A DNA stretch of 42,064 nt from a virus: the UHGV virus genome UHGV-0178365. One strand, 5' to 3'. Every line of letters begins with the position of its first letter. Positions within the stretch are counted from its first letter, which is position 1. The translations under genes were made by a program, and so were the position numbers. Of the stretch, positions 1 through 42,064 are shown piece after piece. The notes beneath the pieces are model-generated. The model made no database searches, was not told the DNA's origin, and saw only the letters and a list, made by a program, of their open reading frames with translations.

Positions 1-59
1 TTTCTGTATCGCGGAACCAACACAAACACGCACGTTGCATGGCTGGCCGTCCTCTAGCC

Positions 60-77
60 TAGCTTTCCGTATCCCAG
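60..77 (+). repeat. Copy 1 of the 17-bp repeat TAGCTTTCCGTATCCCA(g); its TAG is a stop codon
   Basis: Exact match to copies at 378-394 and, inverted, at 1013-1029. One-mismatch copy at 41873-41889. Confidence 0.8.
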
Positions 78-101
78 GCCGCTGTTGGCAACTGGGCCAC
101 A

Positions 102-380
102 TTGCAAACATACGGCAAAATTGCCGTGCTGGATGTCGAGCTGATCATCACCGGGACAATGCAGCCGTGGCAAACCCTCAAAAACAGTGAGCTGCCGACC
201 GGCATCGCTGCGGCTAAGACTGCGTTCGGCGTCGTGGCGGTCGAAAGCTACGGAGAGGCGACTCTTGACGTCACGGTCGAAGGATCCAGGGCTTTTCTGC
301 GAAACAGGGGCGCTTCCGCCATCACGATGTCGCAGAAGGGAGCCTATGCTCACGGCCAAGCCGTGTTTTTTTTGGCGTAG
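102..380 (+). CDS. Hypothetical small protein, cassette ORF A. Start uncertain: TTG at 102 or ATG at the MQPWQ motif. Opposite strand to the tail genes.
   Basis: Open frame ending in the TAG of repeat copy 2. No recognisable domain. GC lower than the phage average. Confidence 0.3.
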   Translation: MQTYGKIAVLDVELIITGTMQPWQTLKNSELPTGIAAAKTAFGVVAVESYGEATLDVTVEGSRAFLRNRGASAITMSQKGAYAHGQAVFFLA

Positions 381-395
381 CTTTCCGTATCCCAG
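378..395 (+). repeat. Copy 2 of the 17-bp repeat; its TAG is the stop of ORF A
   Basis: Identical to copy 1. Confidence 0.8.
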
Positions 396-425
396 CGCGA
401 GCTGATATGGTCGGGAGCGTTCTTC

Positions 426-758
426 ATGCGGGCTACGCAGTCGATTCAGATCCCGAAGGGCGTCAACGCGTACTCCACAGGAATCATGCTCGTTTGGTCG
501 GCGTATGCGGACGGGGTGGCGCAGGATTACAACTTCCACAGCTTCATTGTACCTAAGGAGGTCGTTTCCAGTCATAACGGCTTTGGCCACAATTTTTTCC
601 TAGCCACGCAGTGGTTCAGCAGCTTCGCGGACAAGTACGTTTACATCAACGAGAACAGCCTGGTCGGGCACGAGAGGAACGATGCCTCGGGGACCGGCGC
701 TTCGGGGGTGGTGTACGATAACAGAGCATTCGTTTTGCGCGAAGTATGGGGCGTATAG
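426..758 (+). CDS. Hypothetical protein, cassette ORF B
   Basis: ATG preceded by GGGAG. Ends in the TAG of a partial repeat copy (756-765, tagctttccg). Lower GC than neighbours. Confidence 0.4.
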   Translation: MRATQSIQIPKGVNAYSTGIMLVWSAYADGVAQDYNFHSFIVPKEVVSSHNGFGHNFFLATQWFSSFADKYVYINENSLVGHERNDASGTGASGVVYDNRAFVLREVWGV

Positions 759-765
759 CTTTCCG
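756..765 (+). repeat. Partial (10 of 17 bp) copy of the repeat
   Basis: tagctttccg, then divergence. Confidence 0.5.
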
Positions 766-771
766 CGCTCG

Positions 772-1008
772 TCACGGAACGGCGATCCATGCGACCCGAG
801 GGCCGCGAGGGCCTTGCGAGGCGTTGGCGACGCAGATATCGAAGCCGTCCGTCGCAACGTTGCACGCGCAGACCGTCACGGATCCGTACACGTACGTCAG
901 CTCCGCATCCAGCGACGCTACTACGGCTGGTTTTGATTTGTACGGCTCTCCGAACGCGACATGCGTCATGCTCGTCCCATTCGGCGGGGCCTCGTTCGCT
1001 TTCATCAC
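772..1008 (-). CDS. Hypothetical small Cys-containing protein, cassette ORF C, co-directional with and immediately downstream of the tail-fibre gene
   Basis: GTG/ATG start 4-8 nt after the inverted repeat copy. In frame with the tail-fibre stop. Confidence 0.3.
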   Translation of the reverse strand: MMKANEAPPNGTSMTHVAFGEPYKSKPAVVASLDAELTYVYGSVTVCACNVATDGFDICVANASQGPRGPRVAWIAVP

Positions 1009-1012
1009 GCCA

Positions 1013-1029
1013 TGGGATACGGAAAGCTA
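1013..1029 (-). repeat. Inverted copy of the 17-bp repeat, 3 nt after the tail-fibre stop codon
   Basis: The plus strand reads tgggatacggaaagcta. The minus strand reads TAG gca TAGCTTTCCGTATCCCA. Confidence 0.8.
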
Positions 1030-1032
1030 TGC

Positions 1033-1848
1033 CTATATCAGGTAGTACGAGAACGTGCTTATTAAACGCGTCAAAGTCTTTTCCGCCTCCATGCTCCATA
1101 CTTTCATCGTGCCGTCTGACGACACCTCTGCAGCCGCATTAACGCTGTCTCCGCTGATTGGCAGACGCTGCCAGCTTCGCGGCCTCGCTATCTCGGGTAT
1201 GACGCATAGCTTGGCTCCGGACGTTCCGATCGACGTGCCGGAGACGTTCGCGAAGCCGACGACGAGCGTCCCGTACCGGACGAACCGAACCTTTCCCGTG
1301 CCGGTAGCGGGTGCAGCTTCCGCTACCTGGGATACGGAATTCCAAGCGTCCTTCGCAGAGGTGAATTCTTTGAAAAGCTGCACCGGCGTGCCGACCGTGA
1401 TGCCGTTAAGAGGGATGCGCCACAGGGGCATGTCATTCGCCAACGCGTTGCCGTTGAGGATGTCTCCGCGCGTGTACGACGGGTCGGCCGGCGTGCCGGT
1501 CGTGGGCGTGCCCTTGATGACGACGAGGCTCACGGACTCGACGCCCGTGGATGCGTTCTTGGCGTAGCGGGCCACCACCAGGTCGTTGCGTTTCTGGCTC
1601 TGCGTGCCGGTCTGCACCGTCAGGTCGACTCCAGCCGCGTCGACCCAGAAATGGCGACCCTGCATCATGGCGTTGCCGGAGGAGATATGCACCTTGTTGG
1701 ACGATGCCATGGTGGCCTTGAGCTTGTCGTCCTTGACGCCTGCGAACACGTACTCTCCGGAGCCGAGCGCCCCCGCGTTGAACTTCGCCACGTCGAGGGA
1801 CGAGATATGCGCCTTGCCCGTGAAGCCGGTTACCAGCTCGATGCCCAT
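1033..1848 (-). CDS. Putative distal tail fibre / receptor-binding protein; the last structural gene
   Basis: Position after the tail-fibre paralogs. Gly/Thr/Ser-rich. Start ATG at 1848 with GGAAGGAG RBS, overlapping the upstream stop (TAATG). Confidence 0.45.
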   Translation of the reverse strand: MGIELVTGFTGKAHISSLDVAKFNAGALGSGEYVFAGVKDDKLKATMASSNKVHISSGNAMMQGRHFWVDAAGVDLTVQTGTQSQKRNDLVVARYAKNASTGVESVSLVVIKGTPTTGTPADPSYTRGDILNGNALANDMPLWRIPLNGITVGTPVQLFKEFTSAKDAWNSVSQVAEAAPATGTGKVRFVRYGTLVVGFANVSGTSIGTSGAKLCVIPEIARPRSWQRLPISGDSVNAAAEVSSDGTMKVWSMEAEKTLTRLISTFSYYLI

Positions 1849-5857: not shown

Positions 5858-8731
5858 CTAGCCCACCCCCAATGCCCTTCTCGCGCCGCGCGCGTTGGAT
5901 ATCGTCACTTCGTCCGGCGAGTTGTCCGCGATCTTGCGCCCGAGGCCGCGATCGAGCCTGTCGACGCGTTCGGTGAGGCGCTCCACTGCGTCGACGATCC
6001 TGCCGGATTCGCCGCCGTCCTCCTTCGGCTTGCGTCCTCGAGGCGACGAGGGCGAGGATCCCGACCTGGCGAGCGCCGCGTCGAGCGCGAACGCGGCGGA
6101 CGACGGAGCGCCGATGCCCGGGAAGTCCGGCACGTCGAACTCCACAGGCACCTCCACGGCGGGCACGTCCATGTCCGCCGCATCGTACACGTCCTCGGCC
6201 ATGGAGCGCATCGCGTCGACGGCCTTGTAGGCTGCCTCGTCGATGCCTTTGGCAAGGCCCTCGTCTACGAACACGCCGATCTTGCGGAAGAGCTTCGACG
6301 GGCTTGCGATTCCCAGGAACGACAGCACCGCGTTGACGCCGCCCGACACAGCGTTCACCGCCGCGCTCACGACGGACCCGGCTGCGCGGCCTATGCCGTC
6401 CACCAGGCCCATGAGCATGTTGTAGCCGGCCGAGGCCAGGCTGCCGGCGAACGAGGCGACCGCGCCGGGCAGCTGGCCGAGCAGCGACCGGAGCGCGCCG
6501 AGCAGCGACCCCGCGATTCCGGGCACGGCCTGGACGATCATGCCGAACAGCTGGCCGGCCGCCGATCCCAGGCTGGGCATCCACGAGCCCACGGTGGAGA
6601 GCACCTGGCTGATCAGCTGGGGCAAAGACGAGATCAGCTGCGGCACCATCTGCAGGAAAGCCGAGACCAGAGCCTTGAACAGGGTGAACCCGGCTTTGAG
6701 CAGGGCCGGTGCGTTTTTGACCAGGATTCCTACCAATTTGCTCACTAAATCGGGCAGCAGAGGGGTCAGCTGGGGGACCATCTCGGCGAAGGCCTCGACC
6801 AGTGCGATGAAGAGCTGCAGCCCCGCGTCCAGGAGCTGCGGAGCCATGGCAACGAGCATGGTCGCGAGCGCCGTGACGAGCTGGACCACCCCGTCGATCA
6901 GCGCCGGCATGATCGTCGGCAAAATCCCGACGACCTGGAGAAACGCCTGCTGGATCGCGGAGAGGAAGGCGGGCAGGTTGTCCACCACCTGCGAGACCAG
7001 CGTGGGGAGGATCTGAGACGCCTGCTCAGCTAGAACCGGCAGATTGGCGGTGATCTGCTGCATGTTGGCAACGAAATCGTCCGCCATCTTCTTCAGGTCG
7101 GCCCCGCCGGCGGCGGCAGCCAGGCCTAGGCCGAGCAGCCCGGTCGCGGCCGCCCCGAGCACGCCGGTCGCCACGGCCGCGCCCTTGGCGAGCCCGCCGG
7201 CTGCCTGTCCGACCTTGCCGAGGGCGCCCTTCGCCTTCTCGGCCGGGCCCGACAGGTCGAGCTTGGCGGCGAACGTGTCCACGGCGTTCTTGGCAGACTC
7301 GCCGAGCACCGACGTCAAACCGCCGACCTTGTCCTTGATGGGGGCGAGCTTCGCTCCGACGGCATCCGAGATGCCCGAGAACTTGGACGCGATCTTGTCC
7401 TTGACCCCGCTGAAAGCCTCGGCGATGTCGTTCTTGGCGTCGCGGAACCCGTAGGCGAGATCCGTCGACAGCTGCTTGGCCGTATCGAACGCGGACTGCG
7501 GGATCAAGCCGTGCGCCAGGCTCCGAGTGAAGTCCTTCGCGGCCGGCAGCGCGGCTCCGAGGATCCCGGACGCGAACTCGCCCGCGCCCTTGGCGGCGGA
7601 TTTGAGCGTCCCTGCGGCGGATGCAACCCCGGACGCGAGCGCGCCGATGGGACCTATGGCGGTGCCGACGAGGGACACGGCCTTGCCAACAATCACGAGG
7701 CCGGGCCCTGCCGCCGCGAGCGCTACCAGCGCCTTAACGATGGCAGCGAATGTCGCGGGATCCATTTTCTCGATCCCACCCGCGATCTTCTCCAGGGCAT
7801 CGCCGACGGCTGAGGCCATGGGCTCGATCGACAAGCCCGCATCGCTCCATTTCTTTGATGCCGCGTCGATGATCGCTGTGGCCTGCTGCACGATGCGGGT
7901 GAGCGAACCGAGGAACTTCGACGATTCGGCATCGGTGGTGCCGTACTCGCCGATGACAGCCAGGCCGAAGTTTCGGATCGAGGACGTCATGGAGTCGCAG
8001 GCGCCCTTGAACGTGTTCTTCAACTCGCCCATCATGCCGCCCATACGAGCGGTTTGGCCGGCCATGCCGTCGGTGCCTTCCTCGATGCCCTCGGCCAGCG
8101 CCTGGATGGCCCATCCCGACTCCACCGCGCCGTCGCTGATGGCCTCCTTCATCTCGTCGATGGATCTGCCGGACTTGTTGGCCAGGATCTGCAGGGCCTG
8201 CACGCCGTTGTCGGACAGCGACCATATCTCCTCAAGGGACACCTGCCCCTGGGCCTGCATCTTGCCGAGGGCGGCGGTGATGGCGCCGAACCCCTCCTGG
8301 CCCTTGCCGGACGCGGCCGCCGCGTCGCCGACGGCGGTGAGGGTCGGTATCACGTTCTCGGCGGCCATGCCCATGGATATGAGCTGCTGGGCGCTCTGCA
8401 TCATGCCGTCGAACTTGAAAGGGGTCTTCTTCGCGAACGTGTAGAGGTCGCCGATCATCTTGGAGGCGGCCTCGCCGCTCCCGAGCATGGTGGTGAACGC
8501 GGTCTGGGCAGACTCGCGCAGGCTCAAAAAGCTCACGGCGGTGCCAACCGCCGCCGTGCCGATGCCGACGATGGGGGCCGTAACGGCCTTCGATATGCCC
8601 TTGCCGAGCGACTGCAGGCCGTTGCCGAGCGCGGCGACCTGCTTCTTGGTCGATTCGGTGATAGAGGAGACAGCCGCCCGGTAGCGCGACGCGTCGCCCG
8701 TTATGTCGATTACTACCTGGCCGTCAGACAT
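5858..8731 (-). CDS. Tail tape measure protein
   Basis: 957 aa, Ala/Gly-rich helical repeats, position between chaperones and Dit. Confidence 0.85.
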   Translation of the reverse strand: MSDGQVVIDITGDASRYRAAVSSITESTKKQVAALGNGLQSLGKGISKAVTAPIVGIGTAAVGTAVSFLSLRESAQTAFTTMLGSGEAASKMIGDLYTFAKKTPFKFDGMMQSAQQLISMGMAAENVIPTLTAVGDAAAASGKGQEGFGAITAALGKMQAQGQVSLEEIWSLSDNGVQALQILANKSGRSIDEMKEAISDGAVESGWAIQALAEGIEEGTDGMAGQTARMGGMMGELKNTFKGACDSMTSSIRNFGLAVIGEYGTTDAESSKFLGSLTRIVQQATAIIDAASKKWSDAGLSIEPMASAVGDALEKIAGGIEKMDPATFAAIVKALVALAAAGPGLVIVGKAVSLVGTAIGPIGALASGVASAAGTLKSAAKGAGEFASGILGAALPAAKDFTRSLAHGLIPQSAFDTAKQLSTDLAYGFRDAKNDIAEAFSGVKDKIASKFSGISDAVGAKLAPIKDKVGGLTSVLGESAKNAVDTFAAKLDLSGPAEKAKGALGKVGQAAGGLAKGAAVATGVLGAAATGLLGLGLAAAAGGADLKKMADDFVANMQQITANLPVLAEQASQILPTLVSQVVDNLPAFLSAIQQAFLQVVGILPTIMPALIDGVVQLVTALATMLVAMAPQLLDAGLQLFIALVEAFAEMVPQLTPLLPDLVSKLVGILVKNAPALLKAGFTLFKALVSAFLQMVPQLISSLPQLISQVLSTVGSWMPSLGSAAGQLFGMIVQAVPGIAGSLLGALRSLLGQLPGAVASFAGSLASAGYNMLMGLVDGIGRAAGSVVSAAVNAVSGGVNAVLSFLGIASPSKLFRKIGVFVDEGLAKGIDEAAYKAVDAMRSMAEDVYDAADMDVPAVEVPVEFDVPDFPGIGAPSSAAFALDAALARSGSSPSSPRGRKPKEDGGESGRIVDAVERLTERVDRLDRGLGRKIADNSPDEVTISNARGARRALGVG

Positions 8732-37159: not shown

Positions 37160-38473
37160 ATGGTGAAGTATACCATGAAGCGCAAGAGGTACCAGCTGGA
37201 GCCGCTCGACGATGGCCCAAGGGAGAAATGCCGGCATTGGGGGATCCGCGTGTCGTGCGGCCACGATCCGGCGACGGGGAAGCGCCTGAGACCTTACGAG
37301 ACGTTCGAGGGCACGGAATACGAGGCCGATCTTCGAGCCATGGCCATAAAGGTCGAGCACGGAATCGTCGAGACCACGTCCATGACCGTGGCCGAGTACT
37401 TCGTCGGCATGTACCTGCCGTGGGCGAAGAGCCGCGTCAGAACTAAATCGTACGAAGGCGGGCCGCGCGACAAGAGTCTGATAACTCGCGAGACCTATCG
37501 GGGGTACGAGCAGACCGCCAGGCTCCACATCATCCCTCTATTCGGCCATATCGGCTTGTCCGACCTCAAGCCATACTACGTCGAGCAGAAGCTGGCCGAG
37601 ATCCCAAGCCTCGGCTCCCGCCGCAACGCCTACAAGCTGTTGAGGCAGGGGTACCGCAGGGCGGTCAAATGGCAGCTCCTGCAGTTCGTCGTCACGGACG
37701 CGGTAGAGGAGCCGACGGCCGATCCTGTCGACAAGCCCACCGTCAAGTCGGCAGAAATGTGGGATTACATAGACGCGTTCGACGAGCCCGGAGACGAGGA
37801 CGTGCGCATGGCCGTTGCCATCGGGTTCGGCATCGGGCTCAGAAGGTCGGAGATCGCTGCCATCGACAAGGAGGAGATCGACTGGACCGTCGACACCGAG
37901 GACTTCCTCGGCGCAGTGAGGATATGGCGCTCGTACCATTTTCGTAAGGGAGAGGGGTGGTTTGAGCCGCCGAAATCGTTCACCTCGGCGAGAACGGCTT
38001 ATTTCCCGCGATGGCTCGGCGAGCTGTTGCAGCCTCACGCCGAAGGGTCGGGGCCTCTGCTCGAGCACAAGGGCGAGCGCACGAAGCCGGATCGCATCAC
38101 CGACCGGTGGAAGGACGTGGTAGCGAAGAAGGGGCTCCCGGTGGTCATGCCTTTCAAGAACACGCGGCATTCTTGCGGCACGATCCTCGTGCGCGAGGAC
38201 GGTCTGCCGATCACCGACGTGCAGCAGCTCCTCGGCCACAGCACGCCGGTGATCACGTCGACGTTCTACGTCCAGCGCGGCACCGAGTCGACGGAGCGCG
38301 CCGCCGCCGCGATGAACAAGAGGGCGAAACCCGTTGTCCCAGATTGTCCGAAACCCCCCGAAAACGCCGGATCGCAGCCGGATGATAATTATGGCGATAA
38401 AACGAAAAAGAGCGTTTCACCTGGTAGTTTCAAGATCATCAGACCTGATTTCAAACGTGCTTCGAACGGGTAG
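37160..38473 (+). CDS. int: Tyrosine integrase (phage integrase family)
   Basis: 437 aa. R...HxxR (RHSCGTIL)...Y (TFYVQ) catalytic region. Adjacent attP-like site. Confidence 0.85.
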   Translation: MVKYTMKRKRYQLEPLDDGPREKCRHWGIRVSCGHDPATGKRLRPYETFEGTEYEADLRAMAIKVEHGIVETTSMTVAEYFVGMYLPWAKSRVRTKSYEGGPRDKSLITRETYRGYEQTARLHIIPLFGHIGLSDLKPYYVEQKLAEIPSLGSRRNAYKLLRQGYRRAVKWQLLQFVVTDAVEEPTADPVDKPTVKSAEMWDYIDAFDEPGDEDVRMAVAIGFGIGLRRSEIAAIDKEEIDWTVDTEDFLGAVRIWRSYHFRKGEGWFEPPKSFTSARTAYFPRWLGELLQPHAEGSGPLLEHKGERTKPDRITDRWKDVVAKKGLPVVMPFKNTRHSCGTILVREDGLPITDVQQLLGHSTPVITSTFYVQRGTESTERAAAAMNKRAKPVVPDCPKPPENAGSQPDDNYGDKTKKSVSPGSFKIIRPDFKRASNG

Positions 38474-38489
38474 GGCAAACTTAAAATCT

Positions 38490-38532
38490 TCCGGCTTCGG
38501 CCTTGCGGGTTCGAGTCCCGCCGCCCCTACCA
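38490..38532 (+). other. attP-like core: 3' fragment of a tRNA/tmRNA (T-arm GCGGG-TTCGAGT-CCCGC, acceptor 3' strand, CCA)
   Basis: gcgggttcgagtcccgccgcccctacca. No matching 5' acceptor strand upstream, so not a full tRNA. Confidence 0.5.
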
Positions 38533-38648: not shown

Positions 38649-39032
38649 TTACGCTAAAAACTCGCTGCGCACCCACCCTTCCGCTCTGTACAAAACGCGG
38701 CACCATTCCCCGTCGCGCTCGAGCACGTCGCATTCTGCGCCGCGGGGCAGGACGTGGATCACGTTGCCGTTCTGCTCGTCGCGCATGTTCAGGCCGTGCG
38801 CCGCCGATACGACGGCTCGGTCGTGACCGATCTCCTCGGACTGCTCGCCATCGTCGGAACCGTCCCAGGCTTGCGGAGAGTCGTTCTCGGCTGCCGTTTC
38901 GGCCTTGTCGGCATGCGTCTGCGATTCGGTCGCATGCGAGGCGTACAGCGTCTCCAGCTCGGCCAATTTCGCATCCTTGCCGTACTCCACGCCCATCTCG
39001 TCCAGGATCCGCTTGATCTCGTCTTTGGTCAT
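38649..39032 (-). CDS. Hypothetical protein with a C-terminal SH3-like / cell-wall-binding region
   Basis: Acidic N-terminus. Ends GWVRSEFLA. Downstream of the endolysin. Confidence 0.35.
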   Translation of the reverse strand: MTKDEIKRILDEMGVEYGKDAKLAELETLYASHATESQTHADKAETAAENDSPQAWDGSDDGEQSEEIGHDRAVVSAAHGLNMRDEQNGNVIHVLPRGAECDVLERDGEWCRVLYRAEGWVRSEFLA

Positions 39033-39041
39033 GCCAGCTCC

Positions 39042-40034
39042 TTACAGTCTAACCAGCCGGGCGCGGAACGCCGACACCATGCCGCCGTTGCCAGCGTAGT
39101 CGTCCCCGCATCCGCTCGTGTCGTCGAGGTCGATCATGTCGGCCAGGAAGCCCTCTCCGACGTTAGCCACCGAGTACTCGATGCCGAGCCACCCGGTCGC
39201 GTCGGGATCCTGCGTCTCGTAATAGCAGCGCACCGCCGTGATCGGTGAGCCGTCGCCGGCACAGCCGTCCTCCAGGTCGTTGATGTCGTACTTGTTGACG
39301 CGCGGCAGCCAGCCTTGACGCTGCGTGCGCACTTGGTACCACCCCGGCATATCGATGGCGAGATACAGGATCGGCGATCCGTCGCCCGCGTAATCGTCTC
39401 CGGAACCGCCCGTGTCGGTGTGGTCGACCATCTCCGGCAGCACCCCGTTGGCGGTGCGGACGCGGTAGCGCAGATCGGGGATGCCGACGGACGGGGCGGG
39501 GGAAGGGGCGGGAGAAGGAGCCGCGCCGCCGCCCATCTCGTCGTACCAAGCCTGGGCGCGGGCCATGTACTCCGCGTTCTGGCTGCGCTGAAGCTCGCCG
39601 GGGCAGTCGGTCGCCGACCAGTGGGAGTGAGGGAACACGTTCACCAGCCACTCCGGACGGCCAAGGCCGTACTTGCGGCAGATCGCCGCCACGAGGTGCG
39701 CGCCCTGGTCGAGCACGGTGTCGTTGACCGTCCACGGCCCGAACTGGTTGTTGGCGTGCTCGATGCTGATGGTGTTGCTGTTCGCCCACGCGTTGGCGCA
39801 CGCCCAGGCGGTGTCCCAGTCGTTGACCAGCTGGCCGATGGTGCCGTCCGCCTGCACCGCGTAGTGGGCGGACGCCTCGCGCGTCTGCCACGTGCTGTAG
39901 CAGCCGTCGATGCTCAGGTTGCCGCCCATGTGGTGGATGGTCACGGCCTTGATGGAGCCGTTGCGACCCGGCGTGTAGTGCTTGGTTAGGATGCGTTCGA
40001 CATCCGCGTTGAGGCCGATCCAGTCCATGGTCAC
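39042..40034 (-). CDS. Endolysin: N-acetylmuramoyl-L-alanine amidase (Amidase_2/PGRP) plus three C-terminal GDDYAG cell-wall-binding repeats
   Basis: N-terminal amidase_2-like region (AVTIHHMGG, SIEH). Triple repeat TGGSGDDYAGDG / CAGDGSP / SGCGDDYAGNG. Confidence 0.7.
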   Translation of the reverse strand: MTMDWIGLNADVERILTKHYTPGRNGSIKAVTIHHMGGNLSIDGCYSTWQTREASAHYAVQADGTIGQLVNDWDTAWACANAWANSNTISIEHANNQFGPWTVNDTVLDQGAHLVAAICRKYGLGRPEWLVNVFPHSHWSATDCPGELQRSQNAEYMARAQAWYDEMGGGAAPSPAPSPAPSVGIPDLRYRVRTANGVLPEMVDHTDTGGSGDDYAGDGSPILYLAIDMPGWYQVRTQRQGWLPRVNKYDINDLEDGCAGDGSPITAVRCYYETQDPDATGWLGIEYSVANVGEGFLADMIDLDDTSGCGDDYAGNGGMVSAFRARLVRL

Positions 40035-40297
40035 TCCTCCCGCTCTTCCGCCGTGCGCATCTTGTGATAGCCTTCAAGCTCCCATACCTTGTCTCGGACG
40101 CGTCCCATGCAGATTTTCGCGCCTAGATCGCGGTCGTAGTTCTCTGGGTCGATGCACGCCGAAGTCTCGGTGACGATGAAGCCGCACGGAAGCTTCGCAT
40201 GAACCACGGTCATGCAGCCGAAACGATCTTCGACCGTGATCTCGGCTGCTGCCAGGATCGAGTCGACCTGCTCAGGGAACACCCGGTTGTCATTCAT
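40031..40297 (-). CDS. Hypothetical protein in the lysis cassette
   Basis: 88 aa between the holin and the endolysin. Confidence 0.3.
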   Translation of the reverse strand: MNDNRVFPEQVDSILAAAEITVEDRFGCMTVVHAKLPCGFIVTETSACIDPENYDRDLGAKICMGRVRDKVWELEGYHKMRTAEEREE

Positions 40298-40299
40298 GT

Positions 40300-40530
40300 C
40301 TACTCCTTGTCTTTGAGGCTATCCAGCACCTTCTGCGCGTCCTGGGCGGCCTCGGTCATGTTGTTGTTGCGCCACCAGGCGACGACGGTCGTGCCGATGG
40401 CAAGCACCGCCGCCACGGCCCCTGTGAGCGCGTCGGGGTCGATCGCGCCGAAGGTGATGGCGAACACGAGGCCCAGCGCGCCCAGCGCCACCGCCAGGGT
40501 GCCGATAGCCTTGATCTGCTCCTTGTTCAT
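40300..40530 (-). CDS. Holin (two transmembrane segments)
   Basis: Start MNKEQIKAIGTLAVALGALGLVF. Two hydrophobic helices. The upstream part of the track ORF is discarded. Confidence 0.55.
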   Translation of the reverse strand: MNKEQIKAIGTLAVALGALGLVFAITFGAIDPDALTGAVAAVLAIGTTVVAWWRNNNMTEAAQDAQKVLDSLKDKE

Positions 40531-40544
40531 TCCTGCTCCGATCT

Positions 40545-40883
40545 CTAGATGTTTATGCCGAGATGAGTTGCCACGATCCCGACCACGAACGCCAGGACCG
40601 CCGTGAGGGCGTAGTTGACGACGCTGTCCCATCTCTTCGCGGGCGCGGCCTCCAGAGCCGCTATGCGCTCCTCGGCGGCCGTCTGCCAGGCTGTGTTGGC
40701 CTCTTGTATCGCGGTGAGCCTGACAACGCACTCGCGCAGCTCGTCGATCTCCCCGCCGTGCGCCTCGAGGCGCTTGTCGTGCAGCGCGATGGCCCGCTCA
40801 TGGGCCGAATGCTCGAGGCACTGGTCCAACCGGATCACCTCCTGTCGTGTACGCCGCTTTCCGTCTGCGCCATAGTCCCGCAC
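40545..40883 (-). CDS. XhlA-like lysis-associated membrane protein (coiled coil plus C-terminal TM)
   Basis: C-terminal hydrophobic VVNYALTAVLAFVVGIVATHL. Confidence 0.4.
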   Translation of the reverse strand: MRDYGADGKRRTRQEVIRLDQCLEHSAHERAIALHDKRLEAHGGEIDELRECVVRLTAIQEANTAWQTAAEERIAALEAAPAKRWDSVVNYALTAVLAFVVGIVATHLGINI

Positions 40884-40976
40884 GAGTCACCTGATCCCGG
40901 AAAATCCCAAGCGCGCTTATGATTGGAAACGCGCGAAAAGCGCCTGGGATTTTTGAGTCGAAAAGGAGCCGAGCCA

Positions 40977-41875
40977 TGAACATCGCGGAGATCTACGAGA
41001 GCCACTACCTGCCGGAGAAGTCGAAGAAGCGCCGCCCCTCGACCGTGGCGGGATACGACAGCTCGGTGCGCCTCCACGTGCTGCCGAGGTGGGGTTCGTG
41101 CGAGATCGAGGACATCGATCCCGACGACCTGCAGGAGTGGGTGGACGGGTTCGATCGTGCCGGCGCCGCCGAGAAAGCCTACAAGTGCCTGCGCCAGATC
41201 GTGCGGTGGTGGATTAGGGCAAAGCGCCTGCATATCCCCGATCCGACCCTCTACGTCGAGCTGCCGGCGAAGGAGCCGTACCGTCCCGACGTGCTGGACG
41301 CGGAAGGCGTCACGGCCATGCTGCGCGGCATGTGGGGCCATGCCATGGAGGCCGTTGCCATCTGCTCCGTGACGATGGGGCTCCGGAGGGGCGAGGCGTG
41401 CGCGCTCACGTGGGGGGACATCAATCTCAAAACAGGCGAGGTTCGCGTGAGCAAGTCGCGGCAGTGCGTGGGCGGAGAGGTCGTGACCGAGGGCACGAAA
41501 ACCGACAAGTCAACGAGGTCATGCTACCTTCCCAGGTTCGCCATCAACCGCTTGCGCCAGATCAGGGGCAAGGGCCTCATCACCGGAGACGTGTCGCCCG
41601 ACAAGGTTGCGCGCTCGATCAAGTCGTGGTGCAAACGCATGCGCCTGCCGCACGTCAGCATGACCAATCTGCGCCATACCTGGGCGACGCTCGCTATAGA
41701 GGCCGGCATCGGCATCGAGACGGTCGCCATGATGCTAGGGCACACCGACATATCGACGGCGTACGACCACTACATAGTCCCGCGCCGCGCTATCTGCGTC
41801 GCCGCTCAGGACGCCGTGGAGACTCTGCTGGTCAAGAGCGCGGGCAAGCCAAGGAAGATGCTGCTGGCCGCATAG
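40977..41875 (+). CDS. Small tyrosine recombinase (XerC/D- or Rci-like, 299 aa). Its TAG stop is the first 3 nt of a repeat copy.
   Basis: LRHTWATLA (HxxR) and LGHTDISTAYDHY (catalytic Tyr). Has the N-terminal core-binding domain but no phage-integrase arm-binding N-terminus. Confidence 0.8.
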
Positions 41876-41889
41876 TTTTCCGTATCCCA
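41873..41889 (+). repeat. Copy 5 of the 17-bp repeat (TAGTTTTCCGTATCCCA, one mismatch)
   Basis: Match to copies at 60, 378 and 1013. TAG is the recombinase stop. Confidence 0.7.
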
Positions 41890-41908
41890 TATACAATCCG
41901 GCAGGCTG

Positions 41909-42064
41909 ATGGTCATGTCGAGCGCTAAAGCTGTAGTCGAGAAACGCGTCGATTTCAAAACGCCTTTTTCCGATGTACCCGTTGTGGTCGTCAACGCAAA
42001 CTCGGCAACGCCAAACGACGTTGACGTCAACGCAGGGAGCGTGGACGCAAACGGATTTAGTGTG
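41909..42064 (+). CDS. 5' part of an ORF running off the window end (possible fourth cassette ORF)
   Basis: ATG at 41909. The open frame reaches the last base of the window. Confidence 0.2.
   Translation, partial: MVMSSAKAVVEKRVDFKTPFSDVPVVVVNANSATPNDVDVNAGSVDANGFSV

What the first reader, a model, noticed from the sequence alone, without database searches (positions are those of the whole stretch)
40977..41889. Second tyrosine recombinase whose stop codon is embedded in the same 17-bp repeat
The phage already has an integrase (37160-38473) beside an attP-like tRNA fragment. The 299-aa recombinase at 40977-41875 is XerC/D- or Rci-sized and lacks an arm-binding N-terminus. It ends ...LLAA-TAG TTTTCCGTATCCCA, the same element that bounds the tail-fibre cassettes about 41 kb away in this linear window, or a few hundred bp away if the genome is circular.

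A dedicated small tyrosine recombinase abutting its own recombination-site repeat is the architecture of shufflon (Rci) and integron (IntI/attI) systems. This recombinase is the prime candidate for the enzyme acting on the cassette array.
Basis: partly seen in the sequence, partly recalled or inferred. Interest (0 to 1): 0.8.

Follow-up and report, generated by a model that had tools for sequence, protein, structure and literature searches.

The report
Known Rin shufflon of Eggerthella prophage
This small second recombinase is the invertase of a Rin shufflon, which flips five alternative tips onto the phage's receptor-binding protein; the system has already been published for exactly this group of Eggerthella lenta prophages.

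Summary
Its TAG stop is the first triplet of a 17-bp repeat, TAG[C/T]TTTCCGTATCCCA. The repeat has five copies, three on + and two on −, against 0.02 expected by chance.

The window is a circular permutation. When its ends are joined, the recombinase sits directly beside five cassettes (A-E). Each cassette is headed by a repeat copy, and a fifth-type copy lies inside a receptor-binding protein (RBP) gene after codon 168. All five cassettes fuse in frame.

Near-identical public contigs carry the same cassettes in at least five different signed orders. Every breakpoint falls inside a repeat. All five predicted fusion proteins exist in public data.

The interpretation (a dedicated invertase driving a shufflon) is supported. 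The integron analogy is not supported.

The system is already published. It is the Rin shufflon of Bifidobacterium prophages (Mavrich 2018) and of E. lenta clade-1 prophages (Buttimer 2022; rix core ttccgtat). The window carries that clade's published attP exactly.

New but incremental findings are a 17-bp site model, Rin modules in low-GC ~130-kb phages, and a conserved pair of rix-like half-sites upstream of rin.

The parts
40976..41875 (+). rin: 299-aa armless tyrosine recombinase (the RBP-locus invertase). Catalytic residues are R137, K175, R233, H256 and Y263, with Thr230 in place of the first His.
41873..41889 (+). rix s1 (TAGTTTTCCGTATCCCA). Its first triplet is the rin stop codon, and it heads cassette A.
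41890..42064 (+). Cassette Rv-A, first part. The ORF continues across the window end. It contains an H-type lectin domain.
   Evidence: contiguity across the junction in L001.
1..57 (+). Cassette Rv-A, second part (stop TAG at 55-57).
60..76 (+). rix s2 (TAGCTTTCCGTATCCCA), heading cassette B.
63..380 (+). Cassette Rv-B (105 aa). Its stop TAG at 378-380 is the first triplet of s3.
   Evidence: Rc::B exists as P0125.
378..394 (+). rix s3, heading cassette C.
381..758 (+). Cassette Rv-C (125 aa; stop TAG at 756-758).
   Evidence: Rc::C in L001 and P0128.
756..765 (+). Degenerate left half of a rix (TAGCTTTCCG) at the C/D tail-to-tail junction. No complete site is present here, and C and D stay linked in every arrangement.
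772..1026 (-). Cassette Rv-D (84 aa plus stop). H-type lectin-like, with a C-terminus resembling that of cassette A.
   Evidence: Rc::D in L076 and L077 and P0130.
1013..1029 (-). rix s4, heading cassette D.
1033..1327 (-). Cassette Rv-E, the one currently expressed as the C-terminal head of the RBP (stop TAG at 1033-1035).
1328..1344 (-). rix s5 (TGGAATTCCGTATCCCA), the Rc-internal site. It encodes W-N-S-V-S-Q and is the most palindromic copy.
1345..1848 (-). Rc: the constant 168-aa N-terminal (shoulder) part of the receptor-binding protein. ATG at 1848, RBS GGAAGGAG.
40894..40953 (.). Conserved pair of everted rix-like half-sites (AAAATCCCA at 40901-40909; TGGGATTTT at 40945-40953), plus an extra ATCCC at 40894-40898. 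It lies in the divergent intergenic region between the lysis cassette and rin. It is a candidate Rin-binding operator or accessory element, and it can also fold as a hairpin.
37160..38473 (+). Context only, not part of the shufflon: the true phage integrase, with an N-terminal extension.
38505..38532 (+). Context only: attP core, an exact match to the published clade-1 attP (tRNA-Leu 3' end).

Best explanation
The locus is a Rin-type multiple-inversion system (shufflon) of an Eggerthella lenta clade-1 temperate siphovirus.

The receptor-binding protein gene consists of a constant 168-codon part (Rc, 1848->1345, - strand) joined through a 17-bp rix site to one of five C-terminal head cassettes (A-E). 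Each cassette is headed by a rix. Three rix point one way and two the other. The armless tyrosine recombinase Rin (40976-41875) lies immediately outside the array, and its stop codon sits inside the first rix.

Rin is inferred to synapse two inverted rix sites and exchange strands within the identical core TTCCGTATCCC, inverting the DNA between them. An inversion that uses the Rc-internal site puts a new head on the RBP. Inversions between cassette sites reshuffle the order for later switches. The result is a phage population with five alternative host-recognition tips.

Shown here: the anatomy, the in-frame fusions, the natural inversion variants with joints in rix, the existence of all five fusion proteins, the strict Rin-rix co-occurrence, and the RBP fold.

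Inferred: that Rin is the catalyst, where it cleaves, that recombination gives inversion only, and that host range changes.
For: - Site statistics: 5 copies against 0.02 expected, and none elsewhere in the window.
- Every cassette starts [L/F/N]SVS[Q/H] at a site. All five fuse in frame to the 168-aa Rc, giving proteins of 250-294 aa with no internal stops.
- Contigs 97-100% identical to the window carry the same five cassettes in different signed orders. Window: A>B>C><D<E (Rc::E). L001: B>A>E>D><C (Rc::C). L074: A>D><C<B<E, which is one s2 x s4 inversion away from the window. L077: E>B>A>C><D (Rc::D). L071: Rc::A.
- Every joint lies in a 17-bp site, and hybrid sites combine the left flank of one parent with the right flank of another.
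- Protein clusters P0133, P0125, P0128, P0130 and P0121 are Rc::A, B, C, D and E.
- Rin has PF00589 and PF14659, and R137, K175, R233, H256 and Y263 are invariant in 12 homologues.
- Rin homologues at 56-100% identity have a rix at or overlapping their 3' end in 69 of 70 loci. Homologues at about 41% identity (Bifidobacterium type) do so in 156 of 159 loci.
- The central pentamer differs between systems (TCCGT, TCCAT, TCTGT) but is uniform within nearly every locus, while the arms stay constant.
- The Rc::E model matches the lactococcal p2, 1358 and TP901-1 RBPs, BppU_N lies upstream, and cassettes A and D carry an H-lectin domain.
- Published descriptions of the same system: PMC6109161 and PMC8778435. 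The published attP is present exactly.
Against: - No experiment or read-level data from a single population was available. The inversions are inferred from comparisons between assemblies.
- Catalysis by Rin is circumstantial.
- Rin has Thr230 where most tyrosine recombinases have the first His of the H-x-x-R motif. It is invariant in the family, but its effect on activity is unknown.
- One related contig (L025/L072) shows an arrangement that rix x rix inversion cannot explain: rin is split at nt 747 and cassette C at nt 158.
- The inversion-only rule rests on four complete variants.
Confidence: 0.9

Rival explanations
1. The small recombinase has another job, such as Xer-like dimer resolution, a second integration function or excision control. 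Under this view the cassette inversions are made by a different enzyme: the phage Int or a host invertase acting in trans.
For: The best curated-model similarities are to XerA, XerD and XerC, and the best solved relatives are XerD and XerA. Mavrich et al. describe a second bifidophage inversion locus that has no adjacent recombinase.
Against: All Xer and IntI model scores are far below their cutoffs (for example 54.7 against 329.6). Rin and rix arrays co-occur in 69/70 and 156/159 loci, with the first rix at the rin stop. The rix centre changes together with the Rin lineage. Two loci whose rin carries in-frame stops have only 2-3 sites. Int has its own attP at 38505-38532.
Confidence: 0.04
2. 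The rearrangements arise by general (RecA-type) homologous recombination between the short repeats, not by site-specific recombination.
For: The repeats are identical over 12-17 bp, and the variants compared come from different samples, so rare events could accumulate.
Against: A 12-17 bp repeat is far below efficient RecA substrate length (established knowledge). All 15 observed hybrid joints lie in the sites, although longer similarities exist between cassettes, such as the A and D C-termini. The dedicated recombinase and the site architecture are conserved from 41% to 100% Rin identity.
Confidence: 0.03
3. The locus is an integron-like cassette platform, in which the recombinase captures and excises cassettes at the repeats rather than inverting them.
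For: The recombinase abuts an array of promoterless cassettes bounded by repeats. Sister strains carry different cassette repertoires (L003, L075, L073; P0126, P0129, P0134, P0135).
Against: The integron-integrase models score 32.7 against a cutoff of 265 and 18.1 against 435. The sites are 17-bp duplex-type sites, not attC hairpins of 57-141 nt. Sites occur in both orientations. All four complete variants keep the same five cassettes and differ only by inversion.
Confidence: 0.02

Closest known systems
Rin shufflon of Eggerthella lenta clade-1 prophages (Buttimer et al. 2022, Microorganisms 10:195, PMC8778435)
   Same: It is the same system. The prophages are 41-42 kb, 67% GC and integrate at tRNA-Leu. 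A tyrosine recombinase (Rin) sits next to small tandem Rv genes, some with H-type lectin domains, and the repeat ttccgtat flanks each Rv and lies inside and after Rc. A separate integrase lies at the other end of the prophage. The window carries the published attP of prophage 1001095IJ_161003_H5phi1 exactly.
   Different: There is no difference of kind. The paper defines only an 8-bp repeat. This analysis extends the site to 17 bp with a TGG/TAG first triplet, documents five natural arrangements and all five fusion proteins, and reports the conserved element upstream of rin.
Rin shufflon of Bifidobacterium dnaJ2-integrated prophages (Mavrich et al. 2018, Sci Rep 8:12772, PMC6109161)
   Same: The architecture is the same: rin, several Rv cassettes, then Rc. 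Rc is 168 aa and the variable C-termini are about 95-100 aa. Rin is armless and XerD-like in organisation. Rc resembles the phage 1358 RBP and Rv resembles the TP901-1 RBP head. Inversions are observed at rix. Rc is homologous (B. longum P0165, 51% identity), and the site lies at the same codon position: W-D-S-L-T-Q there, W-N-S-V-S-Q here.
   Different: The rix sequence differs: TTCCCTAACCC or TTCCGTAACCC there, TTCCGTATCCC here. Rin is only about 41% identical to the Bifidobacterium-phage homologues. The host class also differs (Coriobacteriia against Bifidobacteriales).
R64 / IncI1 shufflon (Rci, sfx sites, pilV)
   Same: It works the same way. A tyrosine recombinase drives multiple inversions among asymmetric sites in which one arm is conserved and the other is not. 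The inversions swap the C-terminal segments of an adhesin, and the recombinase gene sits at the edge of the array.
   Different: Rci is 384 aa and shares only 23% identity over 136 aa with Rin (E = 7e-5). The sites are unrelated in sequence. The target is a conjugative-pilus tip adhesin on a plasmid, not a phage RBP.
Gin (Mu), Cin (P1) and Min (p15B) tail-fibre inversion systems
   Same: The biological outcome is the same: the phage switches host range by inverting C-terminal tail-fibre segments. Min is also a multi-segment shufflon.
   Different: Those systems use serine invertases with an enhancer and Fis. Rin is a tyrosine recombinase (PF00589).
Integron IntI / attI / attC
   Same: A tyrosine recombinase lies next to an array of promoterless cassettes bounded by repeats.
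   Different: The IntI-specific models are not matched. The cassette sites are short duplex-type sites rather than attC hairpins, they occur in both orientations, and the variants differ by inversion rather than by cassette excision or insertion.

Membership tests
Rin shufflon (Mavrich 2018; Buttimer 2022) | A tyrosine recombinase that lacks the arm-type N-terminal domain, is distinct from the prophage integrase, and flanks the cassette array. | tested here: met
   PF14659 begins at residue 10 and PF00589 follows; the protein is 299 aa. Int is 437 aa with about 75 extra N-terminal residues, and the two are 29% identical. rin directly abuts cassette A.
Rin shufflon (Mavrich 2018; Buttimer 2022) | A constant RBP N-terminus gene (Rc) with an internal rix and a second rix just after its 3' end, plus several Rv cassettes each preceded by a rix, some in inverted orientation. 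| tested here: met
   Rc is 168 aa. s5 lies inside the gene and s4 lies 4 nt after its stop. There are five cassettes, three rix on + and two on -.
Rin shufflon (Mavrich 2018; Buttimer 2022) | The rix repeat is ttccgtat (E. lenta) or TTCCCTAACCC (Bifidobacterium) and is rare elsewhere in the phage. | tested here: met
   All five sites contain TTCCGTAT. There are no hits in the other 38.9 kb.
Rin shufflon (Mavrich 2018; Buttimer 2022) | Rc and Rin are homologous to those of described Rin-carrying phages. | tested here: met
   Rc is 51% identical to B. longum CECT 7347 protein P0165, with the junction at the same position. Rin is 41-42% identical to the Bifidobacterium phage PMBT6 and ctl617 recombinases, which sit in rix arrays. 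The Bb423phi1 sequence itself was not available for comparison.
Rin shufflon (Mavrich 2018; Buttimer 2022) | Sequence inversions between related genomes occur at the rix sites. | tested here: met
   Five signed arrangements were found among contigs 97-100% identical, with all joints in rix. All five fusion proteins are on record.
Rin shufflon (Mavrich 2018; Buttimer 2022) | Rin catalyses the inversion, and the switch changes host specificity. | not testable with these tools
   This needs recombination and adsorption assays. To my knowledge it has not been shown experimentally in the literature either.
E. lenta clade-1 prophage (Buttimer 2022) | About 41-42 kb, 67% GC, with a tRNA-Leu attP next to a tyrosine integrase. 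| tested here: met
   The window is 42,064 bp at 66.5% GC. The published attP is present exactly at 38505-38532, after int. P0123 is named Eggerthella lenta by its source.
R64-type shufflon (Rci/sfx) | A recombinase orthologous to Rci (384 aa with a C-terminal extension). | tested here: not met
   23% identity over 136 aa, E = 7e-5. Rin is 299 aa.
R64-type shufflon (Rci/sfx) | The target is the pilV adhesin of a type IV conjugative pilus. | tested here: not met
   The target is a siphovirus RBP.
R64-type shufflon (Rci/sfx) | Inversion without deletion between directly repeated sites. | tested here: inconclusive
   All four complete variants keep five cassettes, but the sample is small and selection could hide deletions.
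Integron (IntI/attI/attC) | An IntI-type integrase that reaches the curated model cutoffs. | tested here: not met
   TIGR02249 scores 32.7 against 265. NF011946 scores 18.1 against 435.
Integron (IntI/attI/attC) | Cassettes are bounded by attC hairpin sites, and variation arises by excision and insertion. | tested here: not met
   The sites are 17-bp, occur in both orientations, and the variants differ by inversion only.
XerC/XerD chromosome-dimer resolvases | Reaches the equivalog model cutoffs. | tested here: not met
   XerD scores 54.7 against 329.6. XerC scores 51.5 against 335.
Serine invertases (Gin/Cin/Min/Hin) | A serine-recombinase catalytic domain. | tested here: not met
   Only tyrosine-recombinase domains were found.

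The most novel reading that the evidence does not exclude
The conserved element 22-80 bp upstream of rin (window 40894-40953) is a Rin-binding site. It consists of two everted rix half-sites, TGGGATT(T), held 35-37 bp apart. Through it the invertase would autoregulate its own (and perhaps the divergent lysis-cassette) promoter, or assemble an accessory complex that biases recombination toward inversion. Mavrich et al. explicitly left open how an armless invertase achieves that directionality.

Support:
- The element is present in 63 of 70 and 155 of 158 loci, against backgrounds of 0.011 and 0.0007.
- Its length is fixed.
- Its arms are always drawn from the arm repertoire of the same system's rix. 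This includes a non-complementary AACCCA...TGGGAT class (54 loci, 27 unique versions) that a pure hairpin would not favour.
- It is absent from the two loci whose rin carries stop codons.
Probability: 0.45. Interest if true: 0.4.

Novelty: already known. Interest (0 to 1): 0.25.

Why it matters
Rin shufflons let temperate gut phages of Actinobacteria carry several receptor-binding tips and switch between them. This affects phage host range, strain-level dynamics of Eggerthella, Collinsella and Bifidobacterium in the gut, and the design of phage-based tools.

For genome annotation, the practical points are these:
- The second "integrase" is an invertase.
- The small ORFs next to it are RBP head cassettes rather than independent genes.
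- Assemblies often break or vary at this locus.

This analysis adds three things to the literature:
- A sharper 17-bp site model, which can be used to predict crossover positions.
- Direct comparative proof that all five heads are used in nature.
- A candidate Rin-binding regulatory element.

These additions are useful to the few groups working on such systems. They do not change what is known about how the system works.

Tried and rejected
- Integron reading: rejected. The IntI models score far below their cutoffs, sites occur in both orientations, and the variants differ only by inversion.
- Rci orthology: rejected. Identity is 23% over 136 aa. AP005147 was not in the collection, so NC_005014 was used.
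- XerC/D membership: rejected on the curated cutoffs.
- tRNA scan: 0 genes. The attP is only a 3' tRNA fragment and was found by pattern search. The other published clade-1 attP is absent.
- Rfam on 40700-41100: no family at E <= 1.
- Consensus promoter/terminator scan of 40500-42064: no promoter, and the upstream hairpin is not called as a terminator.
- Hairpin covariation: each version folds well (z = -3 to -8). RNAalifold, however, finds only 11 consensus pairs, 8 of them invariant, with one pair changed on both sides. Structure alone is therefore not demonstrated. The non-complementary arm class argues against a pure hairpin.
- PDB sequence search with Rc::E: nothing at E <= 1. The fold search was needed to identify it.
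- Rc homologue in the low-GC contigs: none by tblastn.

Full report
**1. The observation**

The ORF is real, but it starts at 40976, not 40977. It encodes 299 aa ending ...LLAA. Its TAG stop (41873-41875) is the first triplet of TAGTTTTCCGTATCCCA (41873-41889).

With up to three mismatches the 17-mer occurs five times:
- + strand: 60-76, 378-394 and 41873-41889.
- - strand: 1013-1029 and 1328-1344.

The expectation from shuffles is 0.02. A relaxed core pattern has no hit in the remaining 38.9 kb.

The protein has a SAM-like core-binding domain starting at residue 10 and a tyrosine-recombinase catalytic domain. The other integrase (37160-38473) carries about 75-100 extra N-terminal residues.

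**2. Anatomy**

Joining the window ends gives one compact locus. Read from rin, the order is rin> s1 A> s2 B> s3 C> <D s4 <E s5 <Rc.

- Rc begins at ATG 1848 (RBS GGAAGGAG) on the - strand. It runs 168 codons to s5, which is read TGG AAT TCC GTA TCC CAG (W N S V S Q).
- Every cassette site is read TAG CTT TCC GTA TCC CA., which is stop, then L S V S Q/H.
- A single base (TGG against TAG) therefore separates the in-gene site from the cassette sites.
- The TAG doubles as the stop codon of rin, of cassette B and of cassette C.
- All five cassettes fuse in frame to Rc, giving proteins of 250, 253, 271, 274 and 294 aa with no internal stops.
- Cassette A spans the window junction.
- C and D meet tail to tail, with only a degenerate half-site between them (756-765).

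**3. Evidence that the sites recombine**

Public contigs 97-100% identical to the window carry the same five cassettes in other signed orders:

| Source | Order from rin to Rc | Fusion |
|---|---|---|
| window | A>B>C><D<E | Rc::E |
| L001 | B>A>E>D><C | Rc::C |
| L074 | A>D><C<B<E | Rc::E |
| L077 | E>B>A>C><D | Rc::D |
| L076 | partial contig | Rc::D |
| L071 | partial contig | Rc::A |

- L074 differs from the window by exactly one s2 x s4 inversion.
- Every breakpoint lies in a 17-bp site.
- Hybrid sites join the left flank of one parent to the right flank of another. Fifteen of the 25 possible combinations are seen.
- Positions 1-5 always stay with the left flank, so exchange occurs within T6-C16.
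- Contigs L002 and L026 end right at s1, as expected if assemblers meet a branch there.
- Protein clusters P0133, P0125, P0128, P0130 and P0121 are Rc::A, B, C, D and E, with 46-193 member sequences each.
- Sister strains carry additional cassettes (P0126, P0129, P0134, P0135; L003, L073, L075).

**4. The recombinase**

- R137, K175, R233, H256 and Y263 are invariant among 12 homologues. Thr230 invariably replaces the first His of the H-x-x-R motif.
- The Xer and IntI curated models are hit far below their cutoffs.
- Rin is 29% identical to the phage's own Int (E = 4e-19) and 23% identical over 136 aa to R64 Rci.
- The family is large: 571 clusters at 90% identity, nearly all about 290-300 aa.
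- In species-representative genomes it is found in Collinsella, Olsenella, Enteroscipio and other Eggerthellaceae.

**5. Co-occurrence and site anatomy**

- A rix lies at or overlapping the rin 3' end in 69 of 70 loci with Rin 55-100% identical. The exception is a contig that ends inside rin.
- Over 207 unique sites, cassette sites read TAG-C-A-TTC-Y-R-TATCCC, with TAG in 95%.
- Rc-internal sites read GGGGA-TTC-Y-R-TATCCC, a near-perfect dyad GGGAT-N5-ATCCC.
- The central pentamer is TCCGT, TCCAT or TCTGT depending on lineage. It is uniform within nearly every locus (L029 and L066 each carry one extra site with another centre), while the arms stay fixed.
- This is the pattern expected of a crossover region flanked by binding arms, with a degenerate left arm in the cassette sites. 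The asymmetry resembles that of sfx sites. This last point is inference.
- Homologues at about 41% identity in Bifidobacterium phage PMBT6 and siphovirus ctl617 use TGGGAT-TCCGT-AACCC. In ctl617 the rin stop TAG is again embedded in the first site.
- 156 of 159 further loci of that type carry sites.

**6. The target**

- The genes upstream on the - strand include a BppU_N baseplate protein.
- Cassettes A and D have an H-type lectin domain (A scores 27.4 bits against a cutoff of 24).
- An AlphaFold model of Rc::E has mean pLDDT 79.6, dipping at residues 160-180, which is the rix hinge.
- The model matches the lactococcal phage p2 RBP (E = 1.7e-9), the phage 1358 RBP (about 1e-4) and TP901-1 RBP heads (about 105 residues at 3.6-4 A).

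**7. What is already known**

Mavrich et al. 2018 (PMC6109161) described and named the Rin shufflon in Bifidobacterium prophages. They defined rin, Rc (168 residues), the Rv cassettes and an 11-bp rix (TTCCCTAACCC), reported inversions at rix in prophage and virion reads, and noted the same 1358 and TP901-1 RBP similarities.

Buttimer et al. 2022 (PMC8778435) described it in E. lenta clade-1 prophages with the repeat ttccgtat. The window has that clade's size and GC content and carries its published attP exactly. B. longum Rc (P0165) is 51% identical, with the site at the same codon position. The finding is therefore a correct rediscovery.

**8. Mechanism**

Shown here:
- the architecture
- the in-frame fusions
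- inversion variants with joints in rix
- use of all five heads in nature
- strict Rin-rix linkage
- the RBP fold

Inferred:
- Rin is the catalyst
- strand exchange occurs in a 6-8 bp overlap around TCCGT
- recombination gives inversion without deletion (all four complete variants keep five cassettes)
- switching heads changes host range

**9. The element upstream of rin**

The 92-bp divergent region between the lysis cassette (XhlA-like, holin, endolysin) and rin contains AAAATCCCA...TGGGATTTT (40901-40953).

- The same outer arms, with a fixed overall length, occur upstream of rin in 63 of 70 loci, against a background of 0.011. This includes the 40%-GC phages.
- In the Bifidobacterium-type set it occurs in 155 of 158 loci, against a background of 0.0007.
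- Each version can fold as a hairpin (z = -3 to -8), but consensus covariation is weak, and no Rfam family matches.
- In systems whose rix arms are GGGAT and AACCC, the arms of the element are ATCCCA/TGGGAT, AACCCA/TGGGTT, or the non-complementary AACCCA/TGGGAT (54 loci, 27 unique versions).
- They are thus drawn from the rix arm repertoire even when pairing is lost.
- The element is missing from L006 and L023, whose rin carries in-frame stops.

I read it as a probable Rin-binding operator or accessory site (about 45%). A structural hairpin is the main alternative.

**10. Verdict**

The integron analogy is rejected. The system is already known for this exact prophage clade. The additions made here are incremental.

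Noticed in passing
window 40894-40953; also L004, L005, L007, L009-L022, L027, L029, L030-L070 and L078-L237, upstream of rin: A conserved pair of everted rix-like half-sites (AAATCCCA...35-37 nt...TGGGATTT) lies 20-40 bp before the rin start. It is present in 63/70 and 155/158 loci. Its arms are drawn from the rix arm types of the same system, including a non-complementary class. The passages I read in the two Rin papers do not mention it.
   Followed up: partly
L004, L005, L007 (IMG/VR contigs of ~130 kb, locus GC 0.39-0.42); L006 and L023 (78-89 kb): Rin homologues 70-72% identical to the window's occur in large low-GC phage contigs. They are closer to the window's Rin than the Collinsella ones are. 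Their codon GC3 is native (0.40). Two contigs have up to 10 rix sites (centre TCCAT). The target is not an Rc homologue but a 137-aa ORF (L007 9720-10133, junction ...SAW-DSIS-H) that follows long tail-fibre genes. The Rin/rix module appears portable beyond Actinobacteria-type RBPs.
   Followed up: partly
L025 = L072 (IMGVR_UViG_2891321278_000001): This contig has an arrangement that rix recombination cannot explain: Rc::A, B, C(1-158), then rin(747-897), then E and D, all in one orientation. It fits an illegitimate inversion with breakpoints inside cassette C (window ~552) and rin (window ~41722), which would split rin and freeze the shufflon. An assembly chimera is the alternative.
   Followed up: partly
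L006 and L023 (rin at 6001-6897): The rin gene carries two in-frame stop codons. These loci have only 2-3 rix sites with the family core (plus one stray pattern hit each) and lack the upstream half-site element. They look like decaying systems.
   Followed up: no
L002 749-2403: A 1.66-kb IS110-family insertion (406-aa transposase with PF01548 and PF02371) sits at the start of the XhlA-like lysis gene, about 130 bp upstream of rin, in an otherwise identical phage contig.
   Followed up: yes
window 41663-41665 (Rin Thr230): Thr replaces the first His of the conserved H-x-x-R motif of tyrosine recombinases in all 12 aligned Rin homologues. The ctl617 homologue has Arg at this position, and the phage's own Int also lacks His there.
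   Followed up: partly
window 756-774: Cassettes C and D meet tail to tail, with only the left half of a rix (TAGCTTTCCG) between them. They remain adjacent in every arrangement seen, so they move as one unit.
   Followed up: yes
L002, L026, L030, L032, L041, L043, L044 and others: Many contigs end within a few bases of the first rix, just after rin. This is consistent with assembly-graph branching caused by within-sample inversion heterogeneity.
   Followed up: partly
window 38652-40883 (- strand): A lysis module (XhlA-like 40548-40883, holin-like 40303-40731, endolysin 39045-40034) and an Arc-like repressor ORF (38652-39032) lie between rin and attP. Late transcription from the tail genes would have to cross the shufflon and rin in antisense to reach the lysis genes.
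   Followed up: no
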